Source of the DNA: Mobula hypostoma
Lineage: Eukaryota
Assembly: GCF_963921235.1 (NCBI RefSeq)
Contig: NC_086108.1
Location: forward strand, 59,212,001-59,276,000
DNA: 64,000 bases
Reading direction: 5' to 3'
Shown here in pieces: positions 4,561 through 60,291 of the stretch. Each line of letters begins with the position of its first letter. Within the stretch, counting starts at the first letter, position 1. Below the pieces are notes generated by a model, which did not search any database, had not been told where the DNA came from, and was given only the letters and a program-made list of their open reading frames with translations. A program made the translations under genes and the position numbers.

Positions 4561-4642
4561 TGGTATATGACGCGTTTAATTTATTTTTTTATATATACTG
4601 CTTATTGTAATTTATAGTTTTTATTATGATGTATTGCAATGT

Positions 4643-5204
4643 GGGCTGTATGGGGTGTCAGGGAGGGGTAGCACCTCTGGTGGGGGAACATGTCGTGTCC
4701 TTTTCAAGGCAGTTAGTCCACCTTTGGTCCCCACCTGGCACTCAGTTCTCACCTGTGGTTCCCCGTAGCTGTTTGCATGCAACAGCAGTCACACCCCGGG
4801 CAACGGCTTCGACAAGCCGGCTAAACCAGGTGAGGGTAGCCGACGGGTCTCAAACCCTCAGTGAGATAGGGAGTTGTCTATCCCAGCATGTGAAGACAGA
4901 CTCCGGCGGATTGAGCAGACGAGACCTATGGAAGATCGAACGGTCAAGAAGGCGGTCTCTGCAAGCGTCGTGGAACGTGTAGAGCAGGACAAGACACAGA
5001 AGACGTCCTGGTCATCCACTGCACCTAGTCCCATCTCCAGCTGTCTCAACTCTGTCTTGCCTCTGGATCCAGATGGGAATTGGGAAGAGAGAGTGAGGCT
5101 GACACTGTGCAACTCTCCCTCACTTAAATCCAAATCACGTGCTAGTCTCGACACCACCATAATGGTGTCGAGGTCCTCATCGACGTCAATGATGGACAAA
5201 CACC
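4643..5204 (+). mobile_element. 562-bp non-autonomous retroposon (probably RTE-derived) with 10-bp TSD
   Basis: Direct repeat ATTGCAATGT at 4633-4642 and 5205-5214. GC-rich body with no recognisable protein domain and an HDV-like fold at the 5' end. RTE affinity is an inference. Confidence 0.7.
4652..4834 (+). ncRNA. Candidate HDV-like self-cleaving ribozyme
   Basis: P1 GGGGTGT 4652-58 / ACACCCC 4791-97. P2 CTCACCTG 4748-55 / CAGGTGAG 4827-34. P3 GGT 4757-59 / GTC 4788-90 (two wobbles). L3 TCC pairs with GG 4798-99. P4 CGGCT/AGCCG. J4/2 GCTAA. Confidence 0.65.
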
Positions 5205-6744
5205 ATTGCAATGTATAGTACTGCCGCTGCAAAACAACAAATTTCATGACATATGCCAGTGATATTAAACATGATTTTGATTCCGAATTAGGATGACAAG
5301 TGGTCAACCTTAGGGTGCGGAGATTAAGGCAAGTCTTTATTGATAAGGGATGGGTGGGTAAACTGGAAGGCTGTTGGCAGCTAGTTGAATTGTATCCAAA
5401 AGGGGACTGGTTTAAGAGGAAGGAGGTTCAGGATTACACGTACATCATAACAGATCCACAAACTAATCTGAATTTTTAATCTTAAGATGTATTGTTTCTT
5501 GCTGGTTTTGCACTCGCTTCTTGATAGCTTTGGTATTCTTCTGCTTGCAGGAAACAGTACTACCTGGGATCACATATAAAAACCTAATCGAAGTCTTCTC
5601 TGGCTTGGAGCAGTTGTGCAAATCAGGGAAGGGAACCAAAGGATAATTCCCTTTTTAATTGCTCGCTTGTCCTTTATTTTAAAATGTCTTCCCAAGTGTT
5701 TATGTTCAATGACAGTCAGAAGAACAGAGACAATGCTCCTGGTTAATGACACTGCGTAATGGGGTATGGTGGCATCATTACCGATTGTTGGAATCACACA
5801 ATAAAGAACTAAGAAGCTTATTCTGAGAACTAGCCTAGTGTTGGTTTTGGAATCAGTCATTGTAACAAGAATTTTATCACATTAATTTCGGTTTTTATGA
5901 AAAGCAGTCATGGAAACAGATTGCTTCTTCAAGCCATCATTCTTATTCAACTGGTGCTCTTTATCTTCTCTACGCAGATATACAAATGACTGCCACTGTA
6001 ATCCAGTCTAAAGCAACACAGGAACTGCAGAAAAATCAGTGTCATTGATTTTGACATTTAGACTGACCAGGAATAGCCTTTTCCCATCTTTTGCAATATT
6101 AAACCATTTACTGCAGAATTTTTAATCCCCAGATATTTATTAAAACCTGAATCTCTGCAGCCTTGCAATCCCCAGTGTGCTGCACACCTTTCTCACCTAT
6201 GCTTTTGCAAAGCAACTAGAAGCAGATTTATATTGATCGGTCTTCATTTCAAGAAACTTTGCAACGTTCTTTAACAATTGTTACTCAGAGTGATCTTAGT
6301 ATTTTCTTGTATCAATTTTTATATCCGTGGTTCCTCTTTACTCTAATATCCTTTACTCCGTCCAAATTTTACTCAAATTCTTATTAAGTCAATAAAGAAA
6401 ACTAAATGCTCCAGATAAATCAGAGTAATTATATGAAGAGAAACACTACTATCAATCTATGCCTTTTTTGACTTGCCATTAGTTTTTTTCATTGTGCAGA
6501 CTTAGCATCCAATCTGTACAGTCTTCTATAGCCGCAGGCCACTAATTCATCTAAACATTTGTATGCCATACCACATTCCACATGATTTTATCACAGCTAT
6601 ACCTGATTTCTCTTCATTTGACAACGTTCACCAAGTAATTCTAATTAGTGTCAACATAGAACAGTTAGCAAGGAGCCTCCTCAATACTGGCGTACTGAAG
6701 CGTACCAGGGTCACCTGCGGCTGACACAAACTATTTTAGATATA

Positions 6745-9140: not shown

Positions 9141-9333
9141 ATATTAGTGAAGTAAATTTAATGAACTGAATTATTGAATTTATTAAATATTACATCAGTC
9201 CCACAAGGAGAGTATGTAAAAATCCTTGTGTTATTACTCCAATGCAATGTACAAACATGTGAATTTATAAGTTTCACACATCAAAGTTGCTGGTGAACGC
9301 AGCAGGCCAGGCAGCATCTCCAGGAAGAGGTGC

Positions 9334-9369
9334 AGTCAATGTTTCAGGCCGAGACCCTTCGTCAGGACT
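9334..9369 (-). ncRNA. Minimal type I hammerhead ribozyme of PLE (decayed cleavage site)
   Basis: Minus strand AGTC-CTGACGA-AGG GTCTCGG CCT-GAAAC-ATT-GACT. GTC has become ATT, consistent with CpG decay. Confidence 0.7.
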
Positions 9370-9663
9370 AACTGAAGGAAGAGTGAGTAAGAGATTTGAA
9401 AGTTGGAGGGGGAGGGGGAGATCCAAAATGATAGGAGAAGACAGGAGGGGGAGGGATGGAGCCAAGAGCTGGACAGGTGATTGGCAAAAGGGATACGAGA
9501 GGATCATGGGACAGGAGGTCCGGGAAGAAAGACAAGTGGGGGGGGAACCCAGAGGTTGGGCAAGGGGTGTATTCAGAGGGACAGAGGGAGAAAAAGGAGA
9601 GTGAGAGAAAGAATGTGTGTATAAAAATAAATAACAGATGGGGTACGAGGGGCAGGTGGGGCA

Positions 9664-10142
9664 TTAGCGGAAATTAGAGAAGTCGATGTTCATGCCATCA
9701 GGTTGGAGGCTACCCAGATGGAATATAAGGTGTTGTTCCTCCAACCTGAGTGTGGCTTCATCTTTACAGTAGAGGAGGCCGTGGATAGACATGTCAGAAT
9801 GGGAATGGGATGTGGAATTAAAATGTGTGGCCACTGAGAGATCCTGCTTTCTCTGGCGGACAGAGCGTAGATGTTCAGCAAAGCGGTCTCCCAGTCTGCG
9901 TTGGGTCTCACCAATATATAAAAGGCCACATCGGAAGCACCGCATGCAGTATATCACCCCAGCCGACTCACAGGTGAAGTGTCGCCTCACCTGGAAGGAC
10001 TGTTTGGGGCCCTGAATGGTGGTAAGGGAGGAAGTGTAAGGGCATGTGTAGCACTTGTTCCGCTTACACGGATAAGTGCCAGGAGAGAGATCAGTGGGGA
10101 GGGATGGGGGAGATGAATGGACAAGGGAGTCGCGTAGGGAGC
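9664..10142 (-). pseudogene. PLE Cys-rich linker plus GIY-YIG endonuclease domain (left arm)
   Basis: CKRNKCYTC linker, VIYCMRCFRCGLLYIGETQRRLGDRFAEH, VATHFN..H, RLEEQHLIFHLGSLQPDGMN. Confidence 0.9.
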
Positions 10143-10670
10143 CCACAACTAAGCACATCTTTCCCTCCCCCCCCCGCTTTCCGCAGCGATTGCTCCCTAC
10201 GCGACTCCCTTGTCCATTCGTCCCCCCAATCCCTCCCCACTGATCTCCCTCCTGGCACTTATCCGTGTAAGCGGAACAAGTGCTACACATGCCCTTACAC
10301 TTCCTCCCTTACCACCATTCAGGGCCCCAAACAGTCCTTCCAGGTGAGGCGACACTTCACCTGTGAGTCGGCTGGGGTGATATACTGCATGCGGTGCTCC
10401 CGATGTGGCCTTTTATATATTGGCGAGACCCGACGCAGACTGGGAGACCACTTTGCTGAACACCTACGCTCTGTCCGCCAGAGAAAGCAGGATCTTCCAG
10501 TGGCCACACATTTTAATTCCACATCCCATTCCCATTCTGACATGTCTATCCACCGCCTCCTCTACTGTAAAGATGAAGTCACACTCAGGTTGGAGGAACA
10601 ACACCTTATATTCCTTCTGGGTAGTCTCCAACCTGATGGCATGAACATTGACTTCTCTAACTTCCGCTAA
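10143..10670 (+). pseudogene. PLE Cys-rich linker plus GIY-YIG endonuclease domain (right arm)
   Basis: Same motifs as the left arm (VIYCMRCSRCGLLYIGETRRRLGDHFAEH), stop at 10670. Confidence 0.9.
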
Positions 10671-10967
10671 TGCCCCACCTCCCCCTCGTACCCCGTCTGT
10701 TACTTATTTTTATACACACATTCTTTCTCTCACTCTCCTTTTTCTCCCTCTGTCCCTCTGAATACACCCCTTGCCCAACCCCTGGGTTCCCCCCGCCCCA
10801 CTTGTCTTTCTTCCCGGACCTCCTGTCCCATGATCCTCTCGTATCCCTTTTGCCAATCACCTGTCCAGCTCTTGGCTCCATCCCTCCCCCTCCTGTCTTC
10901 TCCTATCATTTTGGATCTCCCCCTCCCCCTCCCACTTTCAAATCTCTTACTAACTCTTCCTTCAGTT

Positions 10968-11003
10968 AGTCCTGACGAAGGGTCTCGGCCTAAAACGTCG
11001 ACT
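10968..11003 (+). ncRNA. Minimal type I hammerhead ribozyme of PLE (GAAA changed to AAAA)
   Basis: AGTC-CTGACGA-AGG GTCTCGG CCT-AAAAC-GTC-GACT. Confidence 0.7.
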
Positions 11004-12204
11004 GCACCTCTTCCTACAGATGCTGCCTGGCCTGCTGCGTTCACCAGCGACTTTGATGTGTGTTGCTTGAATTTCCAGCATCTGCAGAATTCCTGTTGTT
11101 TGCGAATTTATAAGTTTAATGGATTGTGGAAAGAAGCTGTCCTGTAGCTTGTTGGCCCTTGCTTTAATGCTGCGGTACTGTTTGCCAGATGGAAGCAGCT
11201 ATGAACAGGGTGACTGGTGTCCCCGATGATCTTCCAGGCCTTCTTTACACATCTGCTGCTGTAAATGTCCTCAATGGAGGGAAGTTCACATCCATATATG
11301 AGCTGGACTGTCAGTACCACTCAGTGCAGTGCCCAACGATTAAGGTTCCCATCTCAGGCGATGATACAAGAAGTCAGGATGCTCTCAATAGTGCCCCCGT
11401 AAAAGGTCTTGAGGATTTTGGGGCTCATGCCAAACTTCTTCAGTCACCTGAGGTGGAAGAGATGCTGTTGTGTTTTTTTTGCCACATGGCTGGTGTGTAC
11501 AGTCCAGATGTAATCTTAGGTGATGTGTATAGCAAGGAACAGGGCAAACCTGTTTCAGTTTCTTCTGTAATCCATGATTAGCTCTTCTGTTTTTTGGACA
11601 TTGAGGGAGAGGTTGTGATCTTGACACCACTGTGTCGGGTTATTAACCTCTCCTTTGTAGGCTGTCTCGTCACTGCTAGAAATAAGGCTGATCAATATCA
11701 TGTCATCTGCAAATTTGATCAGCAGATTGGAGCTGTGTGTGGCAGCAGGGGTGTGGGTGTAAAGGGAATAGAGGAGGGGACTCAGGACACAACCCTGGGG
11801 GGGGGCACCTGTGTTGAGGGTCAGGGGGCAGAGGTAAGGTCCTTGCCACCTGTCAGTGATCTGATAGGAAGTCTAGGATCCAGCTTTACAAAGTGGGGTG
11901 CAGGCTGAGGTCTCTGAGCTTCCTGTTAAGTCTGGAGGATTTTATCTTTGTTTCCCTGGTGCCAGGTCAAGAACATCACTGATTGGCTGTACAAAGTTCT
12001 GAAGGACAGATGAATCACCTCAGGTCATGATTCATATCTATCTAATGACAATGAAATAGAAAGGGAGATTTTAATAAATATTAGGGAAAAAAGCAGATTA
12101 AAAAGCAGGCCCTGAAAGGTGATAATCTTTGGAATTCTCCATTTGTGCCATGTGCCACAAGTGCAAAAAGTAGATAAAAATAGATAAATGGGTGGTACAG
12201 AGGG

Positions 12205-55965: not shown

Positions 55966-56477
55966 CAGAATGTCCACATCTACTGCTTGTAAAGTGATTA
56001 TTGCCTTAAATATTTGTGCATCAACATTTTCAAGGTGCAACAAGGGGACAAATATAATATCACTCTTGATTGTGTCTTTCTTATCTTTACTACTAACAGG
56101 AAATTGGCAGGGCTTTTCAAATTTCCCTGTGGAAAAAAACTAGCATAATTTGCTGTGATGTCCTGTGGTACTGATGGTTCTGGCCACAGGCACCCTTAAG
56201 TTAAGAGTGGGAAACGACCTGAGAACATAAAATAAGTACAAGTCAAGGAAACAATTTCTGCAGTAATTCCTTGCTGCCTCCTAGTCTCCTAATGAATGGC
56301 CCAGTCAGCATTGCAACTTCCTATTTCTTTTAAAATCATATTTTTCTGTTACCAAAAGTAAGAGATATAAATTTGATGCAAACAACAGGAATTCTGCAGA
56401 TGCTGGAAATTCAAGCAACACACATCAAAGTTGCTGGTGAACGCAGCGGGCCAGGCAGCATCTGTAGGAAGAGGTGC

Positions 56478-56513
56478 AGTCGACGTTTCAGGCTGAGACC
56501 CTTCGTCAGGACT
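56478..56513 (-). ncRNA. Minimal type I hammerhead ribozyme of PLE, core intact
   Basis: Minus strand AGTC-CTGACGA-AGG GTCTCAG CCT-GAAAC-GTC-GACT. Confidence 0.82.
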
Positions 56514-57615
56514 AACTGAAGGAAGAGTGAGTAAGGGATTTGAAAGTTGGAGGGGGAGGGGGAGATCCAAAATGATAGGAGAAGACAGGAGGGGGAGGGA
56601 TGGAGCCAAGAGCTGGACAGGTGATAGGCAAAAGGGATACGAGAGGATCATGGGACAGGAGGTCCGGGAAGAAAGACAAGGAGGGGGGCAGGGACCCAGA
56701 GGATGGGCAAGAGGTATATTCAGAGGGACAGAGGGAGAAAAAGGAGAGTGAGAGAAAGAATGTGTGCATAAAAATAAGTAACAGATGGGGTACGAGGGGG
56801 AGGTGGGGCATTAGCGGAAGTTAGAGAAGTCGATGTTCATGCCATCAGGTTGGAGGCTACCCAGACGGAATATAAGATGTGTTTCGAGTGTGGCTTCATC
56901 TTTACAGTAGAGGAGGCCGTGGATAAACATGTCAGAATGGGAATGGGATGTGGAATTAAAATGTGTGGCCACTGGGAGATCCTGCTTTCTCTGGCGGACA
57001 GAGCGTAGATGTTCAGCAAAACGGACTCCCAGTCTGTGTCAGGTCTCGCCAATATATAAAAGGCCACATCGGGAGCACCGGACACAGTATATCACCCCAG
57101 CCGACTCACAGGTGAAGTGTTGCCTCACCTGGAAGGATTGTTTGGGGCCCTGAATGGTGGTAAGGGAGGAAGTGTAAGGGCATGTGTAGCACTTGTTCCG
57201 CTTACATGGATAAGTGCCAGGAGGGAGATCAGTGTGGAGGGATGGGGGGGGGACGAATGGACAAGGGAGTTGCGTAGGGAGCGATCCCTGCGGAATGCGG
57301 GGGGGGGAGGGAAAGATGTGCTTAGTGGTGGGATCCCGTTGGAGGTGGCGGAAGTTACGGAGAATAATATGTTGGACCTGGAGGCTGGTGGGGTGGTAGG
57401 TGAGGACCAGGGGAACCCTATTCCTAGTGGGGTGGCGGGAGGATGGAATGAGAGCAGATGTACGTGAAATGGGGGAGATGCGTTTAAGAGCAGAGTTGAT
57501 AGTGGGGGAAGGGAAGTCCCTTTCTTTAAACAAGGAAGACATCTCCCTCATCCTAGAATGAAAAGCCTCATCCTGAGAGCAGATGCGGCGGAGACAGAGG
57601 AATTGCGAGAAGGGA

Positions 57616-59521
57616 CTGCCGACGGGACATCAACCGTCTCGACTTCACCGCACCTTGTCCCCATTCCAACCTCACTCCTTCGGAACGCTCTGCTCTCCAC
57701 TCCCTCCGCACTAATCCTAACCTTATTATTAAACCCGTCGATAAGGGGGGTGCTGTTGTAGTCTGGCGTACTGACCTCTACCTTGCCGAGGCACAGCGAC
57801 AACTCGCGGATACCTCCTCTTATTTACCCCTCGATCGTGACCCCACTAAGGAGCACCAGGCCATTGTCTCCCACACCATCACCGACTTTATCCGCTCAGG
57901 GGATCTCCCATCCACTGCTACCAACCTTATAGTTCCCACACCCCGCACTTCCCGTTTCTACCTCCTACCCAAGATCCACAAATCTGTCTGTCCTGGCCGA
58001 CCTATTGTCTCACCTTGCTCCTGCCCCACCGAACTCATTTCTGCATACCTCAACACGGTTTTATCACCCCTTGTTCAATCCCTTCCAACCTATGTTTGTG
58101 ACACTTCTCACGCTCTTAAACTTTTCGATGATTTTAAGTTCCCTGGCCCCCACCGCTTTATTTTCACCATGGGTGTCCAGTCCTTATATACTTCCATCCC
58201 CCATCAGGAAAGTCTCAAAGCTCTACGCTTCTTTTTGGATTCCAGACCTAATCAGTTCCCCTCTACCACCACTCTGCTCCGTCTAGCAGAATTAGTCCTT
58301 ATTCTTAATAATTTCTCCTTTGGCTCCTCCCACTTCCTCCAAACTAAAGGTGTAGCTATGGGCACCCGTATGGGTGCTAGCTATGCCTGCCTTTTTGTTG
58401 GGTTTGTGGAACAATCTATGTTCCGTGCCTATTCTGGTATCTGTCCCCCACTTTTCCTTCGCTACATCGACGACTGCATTGGCGCTGCTTCCTGCGCGCA
58501 TGCAGAACTCGTTGACTTTATTAACTTTGCCTCCAACTTTCACCCTGCCCTCAAGTTTACCTGGTCCATTTCCGACACCTCCCTCCCCTTTCTAGATCTT
58601 TCTGTCTCTGTCTCTGGAGACAGCTTATCCACTGATGTCTACTATAAGCCTATTGACGCTCACAGCTATCTGGACTATTCCTCTGTCTCTTGCAAAAACG
58701 CCATCCCCTTCTCGCAATTCCTCCGTCTCCGCCGCATCTGCTCTCAGGATGAGGCTTTTCATTCTAGGACGAGGGAGATGTCTTCCTTTTTTAAAGAAAG
58801 GGGCTTCCCTTCCTCCACTATCAACTCTGCTCTTAAACGCATCTCCCCCATTTCACGTACATCTGCTCTCACTCCATCCTCCCGCCGCCCCACTAGGAAT
58901 AGGGTTCCCTGGTCCTCACCTACCACCCCACCAGCCTCCGGGTCCAACATATTATTCTCCGTAACTTCCGCCACCTCCAACGGGATCCCACCACTAAGCA
59001 CATCTTTCCCTCCCCCCCTCTCTCAGCATTCCGCAGGGATCGCTCCCTACGCAACTCCCTTGTCCATTCGTCCCCCCCCATCCCTCCCCACTGATCTCCC
59101 TCCTGGCACTTATCCATGTAAGCGGAACAAGTGCTACACATGCCCTTACACTTCCTCCCTTACCACCATTCAGGGCCCCAAACAATCCTTCCAGGTGAGG
59201 CAACACTTCACCTGTGAGTCGGCTGGGGTGATATACTGCGTCCGGTGCTCCCGATGTGGCCTTTTATATATTGGCGAGACCCGACGCAGACTGGGAGACC
59301 GCTTTGCTGAACATCTACGCTCTGTCCGCCAGAGAAAGCAGGATCACCCAGTAGCCACACATTTTAATTCCACATCCCATTCCCATTCTGACATGTCTAT
59401 CCACGGCCTCCTCTACTGTAAAGATGAAGCCACACTCAGGTTGGAGGAACAACACCTTATATTCCATCTGGGTAGCCTCCAACCTGATGGCATGAACATC
59501 GACTTCTCTAACTTCCGCTAA
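57616..59521 (+). pseudogene. PLE ORF: reverse transcriptase, Cys linker and GIY-YIG endonuclease, 5'-truncated with small indels
   Basis: IIKP.DKGG, FYLLPKIHK..PGRPIVS, FTMGVQSLYTSIPH, QTKGVAMGT, FLRYIDDC, PFLDL, CKRNKCYTC, VIYCVRCSRCGLLYIGET. Confidence 0.95.
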
Positions 59522-59812
59522 GGCCCCACCTCCCCCTTGTACCCCATCTGTTACTTATTTTTATGCACACATTCTTTCTCTCACTCTCCTTTTTCTCCCT
59601 CTGTCCCTCTGAATATACCTCTTGCCCATCCTCTGGGTCCCCCCCCTTGTCTTTCTTCCCTGACCTCCTGTCCCATGATCCTCTCGTATCCTTTTTGCCT
59701 ATCACCTGTCCAGCTCTTGGCTCCATCCCTCCCCCTCCTGTCTTCTCCTATCATTTTGGATCTCCCCCTCCCCCTCCAACTTTCAAATCCCTTACTCACT
59801 CTTCCTTCAGTT

Positions 59813-59848
59813 AGTCCTGACGAAGGTTCTCGGCTTGAAACGTCGACT
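59813..59848 (+). ncRNA. Minimal type I hammerhead ribozyme of PLE, core intact, stem II weakened
   Basis: AGTC-CTGACGA-AGG TTCTCGG CTT-GAAAC-GTC-GACT. Confidence 0.78.
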
Positions 59849-60291
59849 GCACCTCTTCCTACAGATGCTGCCTGGCCTGCTGCGTTCACCAGCAACTTTG
59901 ATAAATTTGATGGATGTATTTTTTGTAAGAGTAAAAGGTGGTTAATTTAATCTTACAGTGTCCCTTGACATTGCAAGATCAAATCAATATGATCCAACAT
60001 CATAGCTTATTTATCCAGGACGGAACTGCTGTATCCTGTAGCACAGTATCCTGCATTTTCTCAGGATTTTGTCTTCACTGTTCTATCCATTTCATATGTT
60101 GATCGATCCTCGTGTGACGAAGAAATTCTTGACAATCAATCCTACCTTTCCAGTGCCTTGCTTGAACCTGCATCACTTGGTATTTGGCTTGAAATCATGC
60201 TGTGGATCATTTGTAATTATGTATCTTAGTTTTCAAATATCTGGCATCTCCAAGCCTCCCAGACGTCTACATCTGCGCCAAGTGCATCGAG

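What the first reader, a model, noticed from the sequence alone, without database searches (positions are those of the whole stretch)
4643..4840. HDV-like ribozyme with an extra L3 hairpin at the 5' end of a non-coding retroposon
Seen: all HDV elements occur in the correct nested order, with a perfect 7-bp P1, an 8-bp P2, TCC/GG for P1.1, GGGCAAC leading into P4 and a GCTAA J4/2 holding the presumptive catalytic C (4821). P1 begins 9 nt inside the TSD-defined 5' end. Unusual parts are an 89-nt J1/2 and a 6-bp hairpin (GCTGTT 4768-73 / AACAGC 4781-86) inside L3, which is normally a short loop. P3 has two wobbles in this copy. Known: HDV-like ribozymes process the 5' ends of R2 and RTE retrotransposons. 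Inference: a ribozyme-headed SINE-like element with no recognisable tRNA-type head.
Basis: partly seen in the sequence, partly recalled or inferred. Interest (0 to 1): 0.7.

Follow-up and report, generated by a model that had tools for sequence, protein, structure and literature searches.

The report
Ribozyme-headed RTE miniature with paired ends
This 563-base repeat is just the two ends of a longer jumping gene of the same genome; its first 195 bases are predicted to fold into a hepatitis-delta-type RNA, with an extra hairpin in a core loop, that likely cuts the element free at its first base, and its two halves join inside a predicted helix between the parent's distant ends that likely explains how such miniatures keep arising.

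Summary
The HDV-like elements are present as described. The copy belongs to a ~563-bp retroposon with 5,032 first-look candidates in the genome. It is an internally deleted derivative of a ~4.1-kb RTE LINE found in the same genome: nt 1-521 come from the parent's 5'UTR and nt 518-563 from its 3' end. One correction: P1 most likely starts at the element's first base, G4643, not G4652. The second GGGGTGT forms a P1.2 helix, and this copy carries a G4646C change. Homologous ribozymes in other RTE families show compensatory changes in P1-P4. The L3 hairpin is kept in four families, absent in two, and of different sequence in a seventh; it shows no two-sided change. New lead: in six related RTE families a 5'UTR segment is complementary to the family's own 3'UTR; the cognate pairing ranks first of 720 permutations, and deletion junctions cluster at that helix. 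An unrestricted scan did not detect it. Cleavage is untested, and this copy is probably damaged. New variant of a known kind.

The parts
4633..4642 (+). left target-site duplication (10 bp)
   Evidence: a flanking direct repeat of 8-13 bp in 19 of 30 copies, a few not flush with the 5' end
4643..5204 (+). bipartite non-autonomous RTE element (A5205 is shared between tail and TSD)
4643..4649 (+). P1 5' strand; predicted cleavage 5' of G4643; G4646C mismatch in this copy
4653..4743 (+). J1/2 domain: P1.2 helix 4653-62/4734-43 closing predicted nested stems
4745..4755 (+). P2 5' strand (8-bp core 4748-55, extendable to 11 bp with 4835-37)
4757..4790 (+). P3 (4757-59/4788-90) and 28-nt L3: U4760, C4761-C4762 (P1.1), G4765
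4768..4786 (+). hairpin inserted in L3 (5 Watson-Crick pairs plus one U-G in the majority)
4791..4803 (+). P1 3' strand 4791-97, P1.1 GG 4798-99, J1.1/4 4800-03
4804..4837 (+). P4 (4804-19), J4/2 with presumptive catalytic C4821, P2 3' strand (4827-37)
4838..5163 (+). rest of the retained 5'UTR of the parent RTE, with a motif at 5121-28 shared by related families
5145..5174 (+). junction hairpin: 5' arm 5145-57 from the parent's 5'UTR, 3' arm 5162-74 from its 3'UTR (about 3.5 kb apart in the parent); deletion junction at the 5160-63 microhomology
5173..5205 (+). RTE 3' terminal stem-loop and (ACA)n tail
5205..5214 (+). right target-site duplication

Best explanation
The element is the 5' 521 and 3' 46 bases of a ~4.1-kb RTE LINE of the same genome joined together; its first 195 bases are predicted to fold into an HDV-like ribozyme that likely cuts the RNA out of a longer transcript at G4643, after which the parent's protein would paste it by target-primed reverse transcription. 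Shown: family, boundaries, TSDs, parent, compensatory changes in P1-P4 across homologous families. Inferred: self-cleavage; that P1.2 plus an extended P2 pinch P1 and P2 together as in drz-Agam-2-1; that the L3 hairpin is a tolerated peripheral add-on placed just after the U-CC-NN-G core of L3. Inferred, less certain (about 0.55): the parent RNA pairs a 5'UTR segment with its own 3'UTR, and the reverse transcriptase, shortly after priming at the tail, jumps across this helix and so deletes the ORF. This genomic copy is probably a weakened or dead ribozyme.
For: Parent: all 14 fetched copies of one RTE family match the element's 5' part (10 over at least nt 10-521, 90-97% identity) and 9 of 14 also match nt 518-563 at 78-96%. 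Endonuclease and RVT_1 domains; 4 of 4 examined are 4.0-4.3 kb with 8-12-bp flanking repeats. Start site: of 30 copies collected by their 3' end, 17 start at nt 1, 3 at nt 2, one each at 4, 6 and 9, none at nt 10, 7 truncated further in. In family alpha only the first 7 nt can form P1, with a compensatory G-C to A-U change; positions 10-16 give three mismatches. Fold: 92% of cells paired, 5 pairs with two-sided changes, in P2, P3 and P4; one in P1. One RNA-library contig of a related element in another organism has adapter-like letters (identification recalled) joined right at G1: a weak hint (run X20). End pairing: cognate assignment ranks 1 of 720 across six families, per-family shuffle counts 6, 1, 49, 10, 2 and 3 of 1000. 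In family B, 11 of 15 loci are deletion derivatives; 6 join at the helix base and 5 within it or up to about 25 nt inside its top, with differing junction sequences.
Against: No cleavage assay and no raw RNA reads. The L3 hairpin shows no two-sided change among the families that share it. Rfam does not call the RNA. The end pairing does not stand out in an unrestricted UTR scan: no clear cognate excess, and the whole-UTR best is not beyond shuffles for A, B, C and M. Family C was not significant at first (200 of 1000) and reached 49 of 1000 only after its arm was rebuilt from 9 copies and the windows were widened. Windows for G341 and L237 were found by scan and then seen to be at the homologous position. 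Five other RTE families show no such pairing. None of 6 parent copies examined has an intact ORF. Only 18 of 39 full-length copies keep an intact core, and this copy is not one of them.
Confidence: 0.8

Rival explanations
1. One reading: P1 starts at G4652 and the ribozyme cuts 9 nt inside the element.
For: In this copy 4652-58 pairs perfectly and 4643-49 has a mismatch; the descriptor hit uses 4652. In families A-D both repeats are identical in the majority.
Against: Costs 5-11 kcal/mol; 0 of 30 copies start at nt 10; impossible in family alpha.
Confidence: 0.06
2. The fold is real but the L3 hairpin has slowed or killed catalysis; the structure is kept for promoter, translation or protein-binding roles and the 5' end is set by transcription start.
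For: No assay; L3 is 7-8 nt in HDV and CPEB3 (bioRxiv 10.1101/2022.09.22.508989, passages); HDV-like ribozymes are proposed to act as IRES-like and protein-binding elements (PMC6765202, passages); one RTE family here spread with a host-gene-derived head instead of this ribozyme.
Against: The catalytic C, U and G of L3, CC/GG and the following A's are kept in the majority of A, B, C, D, alpha and alpha2 although 5' regions are only 57-87% identical; elements begin exactly at G1 of P1.
Confidence: 0.1
3. For the origin of the miniature only: deletions arise at random (template jumps or DNA repair at microhomology), and selection for the first ~500 nt and the 3' stem-loop explains the shared breakpoints; the complementarity is incidental.
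For: A 4-nt microhomology lies at the junction; the unrestricted scan is not significant; the 3' breakpoint must in any case spare the terminal stem-loop.
Against: Family-specific complementarity at one homologous position in six families; family B junctions differ from one another yet 6 of 11 fall within 3 nt of the helix base on both sides.
Confidence: 0.35

Closest known systems
Bipartite ORF-less non-autonomous RTE LINEs (RTESINE1/2, WALLSI3, Bov-A; Kojima 2018, PMC5786205: part 1 of 5, passages and section 23 read; Kojima 2020, PMC7245038: passages)
   Same: 5' end plus 3' end of an autonomous RTE, no ORF, no small-RNA head, short tandem tail, variable TSD.
   Different: Here the whole ribozyme is resolved, and the junction sits in a helix between the parent's two UTRs; Kojima leaves the cause of the clade bias open.
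R2 SIDEs of Drosophila (Eickbush and Eickbush 2012, PMC3414825: abstract read)
   Same: HDV-like ribozyme joined to the parent's 3' end, mobilised in trans.
   Different: Not site-specific or rDNA-bound; APE-type RTE parent; thousands of dispersed copies; L3 hairpin.
drz-Agam-2-1 HDV-like ribozyme (Webb et al. 2016, PMC4908430: part 1 of 4 read)
   Same: Long structured J1/2 with P1.2, short linkers and an extended P2.
   Different: 28-nt L3 with a hairpin, not mentioned in the part read; activity here untested.
HDV-like ribozymes at RTE 5' ends (Ruminski et al. 2011; not held, known only through PMC5786205 and PMC6765202)
   Same: Same retrotransposon clade, same position, same inferred role.
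   Different: Could not check whether that paper shows any L3 insertion.

Membership tests
HDV-like ribozyme | Nested double pseudoknot P1, P1.1, P2, P3, P4 in the canonical order | tested here: met
   compensatory changes in P1-P4; P1.1 has no two-sided change
HDV-like ribozyme | G1 paired with Y in P1; CC/GG P1.1; U..C-G in L3; catalytic C followed by A's in J4/2 (PMC6326823, passages) | tested here: met
   G4643-C4797, C4761-62/G4798-99, U4760, C4764, G4765, C4821; J4/2 reads C-U-A-A rather than that paper's C-R-R-A
HDV-like ribozyme | L3 of 7-8 nt, as in HDV and CPEB3 (typical, not known to be required) | tested here: not met
   28 nt here; 26-29 nt in families B-D; 7 nt in alpha and alpha2
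HDV-like ribozyme | Self-cleavage 5' of G1 that depends on the catalytic C | not testable with these tools
   indirect only: copy starts, one adapter-joined contig
HDV-like ribozyme | Match to an Rfam HDV/CPEB3 model | tested here: not met
   none at gathering score; E 9.6 partial match
Bipartite non-autonomous RTE | 5' and 3' parts from one autonomous RTE | tested here: met
   parent domains; the RTE label rests on recalled motifs and a single APE-RT reading frame, not on a tree with named references
Bipartite non-autonomous RTE | No ORF; TPRT hallmarks (variable TSD, tandem tail, some 5' truncation) | tested here: met
SINE in the strict sense (Pol III, small-RNA head) | tRNA, 7SL or 5S-derived head | tested here: not met
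   the head is the parent's 5'UTR
Solo LTR | TG...CA termini with a fixed 4-6-bp TSD | tested here: not met
   copies start GGGG and end in (ACA)n with variable repeats

The most novel reading that the evidence does not exclude
One subclade of RTE LINEs pairs its 5'UTR with its 3'UTR through a family-specific helix, closing the RNA into a loop; reverse transcriptase jumps across that helix and repeatedly spawns ribozyme-headed, ORF-less miniatures, which would explain why RTEs generate bipartite parasites. The ribozyme that heads them is an active HDV-like subtype with a fourth peripheral site, a hairpin in L3, abundant in vertebrate genomes and missed by short-L3 search models.
Probability: 0.45. 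Interest if true: 0.7.

Novelty: new variant of a known kind. Interest (0 to 1): 0.5.

Why it matters
Ribozyme-headed deletion derivatives of LINEs are known, so the element type is not new. Two points add to it. First, matched natural ribozymes with and without an L3 hairpin exist in one genome, which makes the tolerance and role of L3 insertions directly testable and suggests that short-L3 models undercount vertebrate HDV-like ribozymes. Second, the end-to-end helix gives a concrete, testable mechanism for an open question in Kojima 2018: why so few LINE clades produce bipartite non-autonomous elements. It also bears on the design of RTE-based insertion templates.

Tried and rejected
Solo-LTR reading (TG...CA with a 6-bp repeat fits this one copy): rejected by flanks of 30 copies. 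Partner searches that failed: DUF6451 hits (other RTE families), endonuclease queries (found alpha, alpha2, beta and others, none sharing the 3' end), 3'-end DNA query (30 of 30 were the short element), tail pattern with excluded bases (34 matches, all the short element or its truncations; the parent differs at one base of the pattern). The nhmmer steps printed nothing because no model was built; redone. Alignment A1 misplaces P2 in the alpha rows, so P2 was counted on A2 only, with 7 pairs. The careful tree did not finish; the quick tree is used, and its rows labelled D are in fact family G341, so the parent of family D was not found. Small-share runs X17-X19 gave only fragments; all RNA runs were contigs, so no start site or expression level could be read. 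No covariance model was built, because genome searches score only the top candidates, which this family would fill. Literature: searches found no paper on L3 insertions in HDV-like ribozymes; none on 5'-3' UTR pairing in RTEs. Ruminski 2011 and Webb and Luptak 2011 are not held, and no supplements or figures were seen, so prior description is not excluded. The descriptor figure of PMC4870747 could not be read.

Full report
Observation. A descriptor for the double pseudoknot with L3 up to 32 nt finds this one site in the window and none in 60 resampled windows. The region is the head of a repeat bounded by a 10-bp TSD at 4633-42 and 5205-14. The genome (G000, 3.48 Gb) gave 5,032 first-look candidates, of which 40 were scored. 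Thirty fetched copies differ from their majority by 2.4% on average, this copy by 4.4%. They end in (ACA)n and 19 of 30 have flanking repeats of 8-13 bp. Sixteen public runs hold at least half its words, from six coded organisms.

Register of P1. The family starts with two copies of GGGGTGT. Three lines favour the first. Folding with P1 at 4643 lets the second repeat close a 10-bp P1.2 with 4734-43, at -63.9 against -53.0 kcal/mol in the majority and -48.6 against -43.3 in this copy. Among 30 copies gathered by their 3' end (one is the query's own copy), 17 start at nt 1, 3 at nt 2, one each at 4, 6 and 9, none at 10, and 7 are truncated further in. In the homologous alpha family only the first 7 nt can pair, with a compensatory change. 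So the predicted cut coincides with the element's 5' end. P1, a 3-nt linker, P1.2, a 1-nt linker and an 11-bp P2 match the pinch design described for drz-Agam-2-1 (PMC4908430, part 1 of 4). One contig from an RNA library of another organism, about 90% alike, has adapter-like letters joined at G1; this is a single contig and a weak hint.

Parent. After several failed routes, a degenerate pattern for a recalled endonuclease motif gave 299 matches and none in the reversed control. Of 30 loci, one family matched the element closely. All 14 copies of it that I fetched match the 5' part; 9 also carry nt 518-563 at their far end, joined in the miniature at a 4-nt microhomology. They encode endonuclease and RT domains, span 4.0-4.3 kb with flanking repeats in 4 of 4 examined, and none of 6 examined has an intact ORF. 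The element is therefore a bipartite non-autonomous RTE in the sense of Kojima 2018 and works like the R2 SIDEs (PMC3414825, abstract).

Fold across families. Families B, C and D share the ribozyme at 84-87% identity, alpha and alpha2 at 57-63%. On real copies, 92% of cells pair and five pairs change on both sides: one in P2, one in P3 and three in P4 (12 rows); P1 adds one (13 rows). These rows are related, so the shuffle counts are not probabilities. The catalytic C and the U, CC and G of L3 are kept in all six family majorities.

L3 hairpin. It follows the canonical start of L3. A, B, C and D keep the same 5-bp stem, and B has a different, shorter loop. It dominates the first 100 of 431 matches of a P3-P1 pattern, by eye. 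Alpha and alpha2 have a plain 7-nt L3. Family beta, whose endonuclease lies far away in the quick tree, has a 4-bp stem of unrelated sequence at the same place. All stem cells pair, but none changes on both sides, so support for the hairpin is conservation plus one independent sequence, not covariation. Four searches found no paper describing such an insertion, but the two most relevant papers were not held.

Paired ends. The miniature's junction is a hairpin whose arms come from opposite ends of the parent. At the homologous 5'UTR position, families B, C, M, G341 and L237 each have a different sequence complementary to their own 3'UTR just upstream of the terminal stem-loop. The cognate assignment is best of 720 permutations; shuffle counts are 6, 1, 49, 10, 2 and 3 of 1000. 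A was the discovery; B, C and M were checked by position; G341 and L237 came from a scan. Against this: a crude scan of whole UTRs shows no clear cognate excess; whole-UTR best scores for A, B, C and M do not exceed shuffles; C scored 200 of 1000 before its arm was rebuilt from 9 copies; E231, alpha, beta, gamma and epsilon show nothing. In family B (arms at UTR 504-521 and -48 to -31), 11 of 15 loci are deletion derivatives: six join 504-507 to -28/-33, and five join 516-540 to -41/-73, with differing junction letters. In family C, 5 of 15 join 518-526 to -42/-86. This is the pattern expected if RT jumps across the base or the top of a long-range helix, and it suggests repeated independent origins. 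Selection for the first 500 nt remains a rival. I noted this idea before seeing that other agents of this scan had proposed it for the same family; their notes are not independent support.

This copy. It has a P1 mismatch and two P3 wobbles; 18 of 39 full-length copies keep an intact core. It is most likely an old neutral insertion.

Verdict. Real, explained, and a new variant of a known kind. Interest 0.5, carried by the L3 subtype and by the testable end-pairing mechanism.

Noticed in passing
L232, L233, L238, L259 (L259:295-474:+), L326-L330: An abundant young RTE family (copies about 95% alike) shares the element's UTR only from nt ~229; its 5' end is a GC-rich piece that hits Pfam Glyoxalase_4 and looks like a captured host methylmalonyl-CoA epimerase exon (name recalled). 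It appears to have swapped the ribozyme head for host-gene sequence.
   Followed up: partly
L134, L137, L144, L149, L160 (5' ends): Family beta starts with the same first 15 or so bases but folds as a compact CPEB3-like ribozyme without an evident P4 and with its own L3 hairpin.
   Followed up: partly
tree; L231/L331, L145, L196: 5' heads and endonucleases disagree: alpha carries a homologous ribozyme though its protein is distant, and E231 lies in the parent's clade but has a different head. Suggests exchange of 5' modules; direction not tested.
   Followed up: partly
window 4642 and equivalents: T precedes G1 in 15 of 17 copies that start at nt 1: an insertion-site preference or selection for cleavable flanks.
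   Followed up: no
window 4774-4781: The loop of the L3 hairpin holds a 6-nt palindrome in families A, C and D, which could allow loop-loop dimers as seen for CPEB3 L3 in crystals; family B lacks it. Speculative.
   Followed up: no
G000:C5:123.83-124.18 Mb: Nine near-identical variant copies spaced 20-90 kb apart, probably a tandem segmental duplication.
   Followed up: no
window 9275-11104 and 56378-59902: Long 95-97% inverted repeats of one family, a layout recalled for Penelope-like elements.
   Followed up: no
L061:2760-5813:-: An RTE copy of another family with a 1018-codon open frame.
   Followed up: no
L205, L207, L192: Several alpha2 copies have their 5'UTR inverted relative to the ORF.
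   Followed up: no
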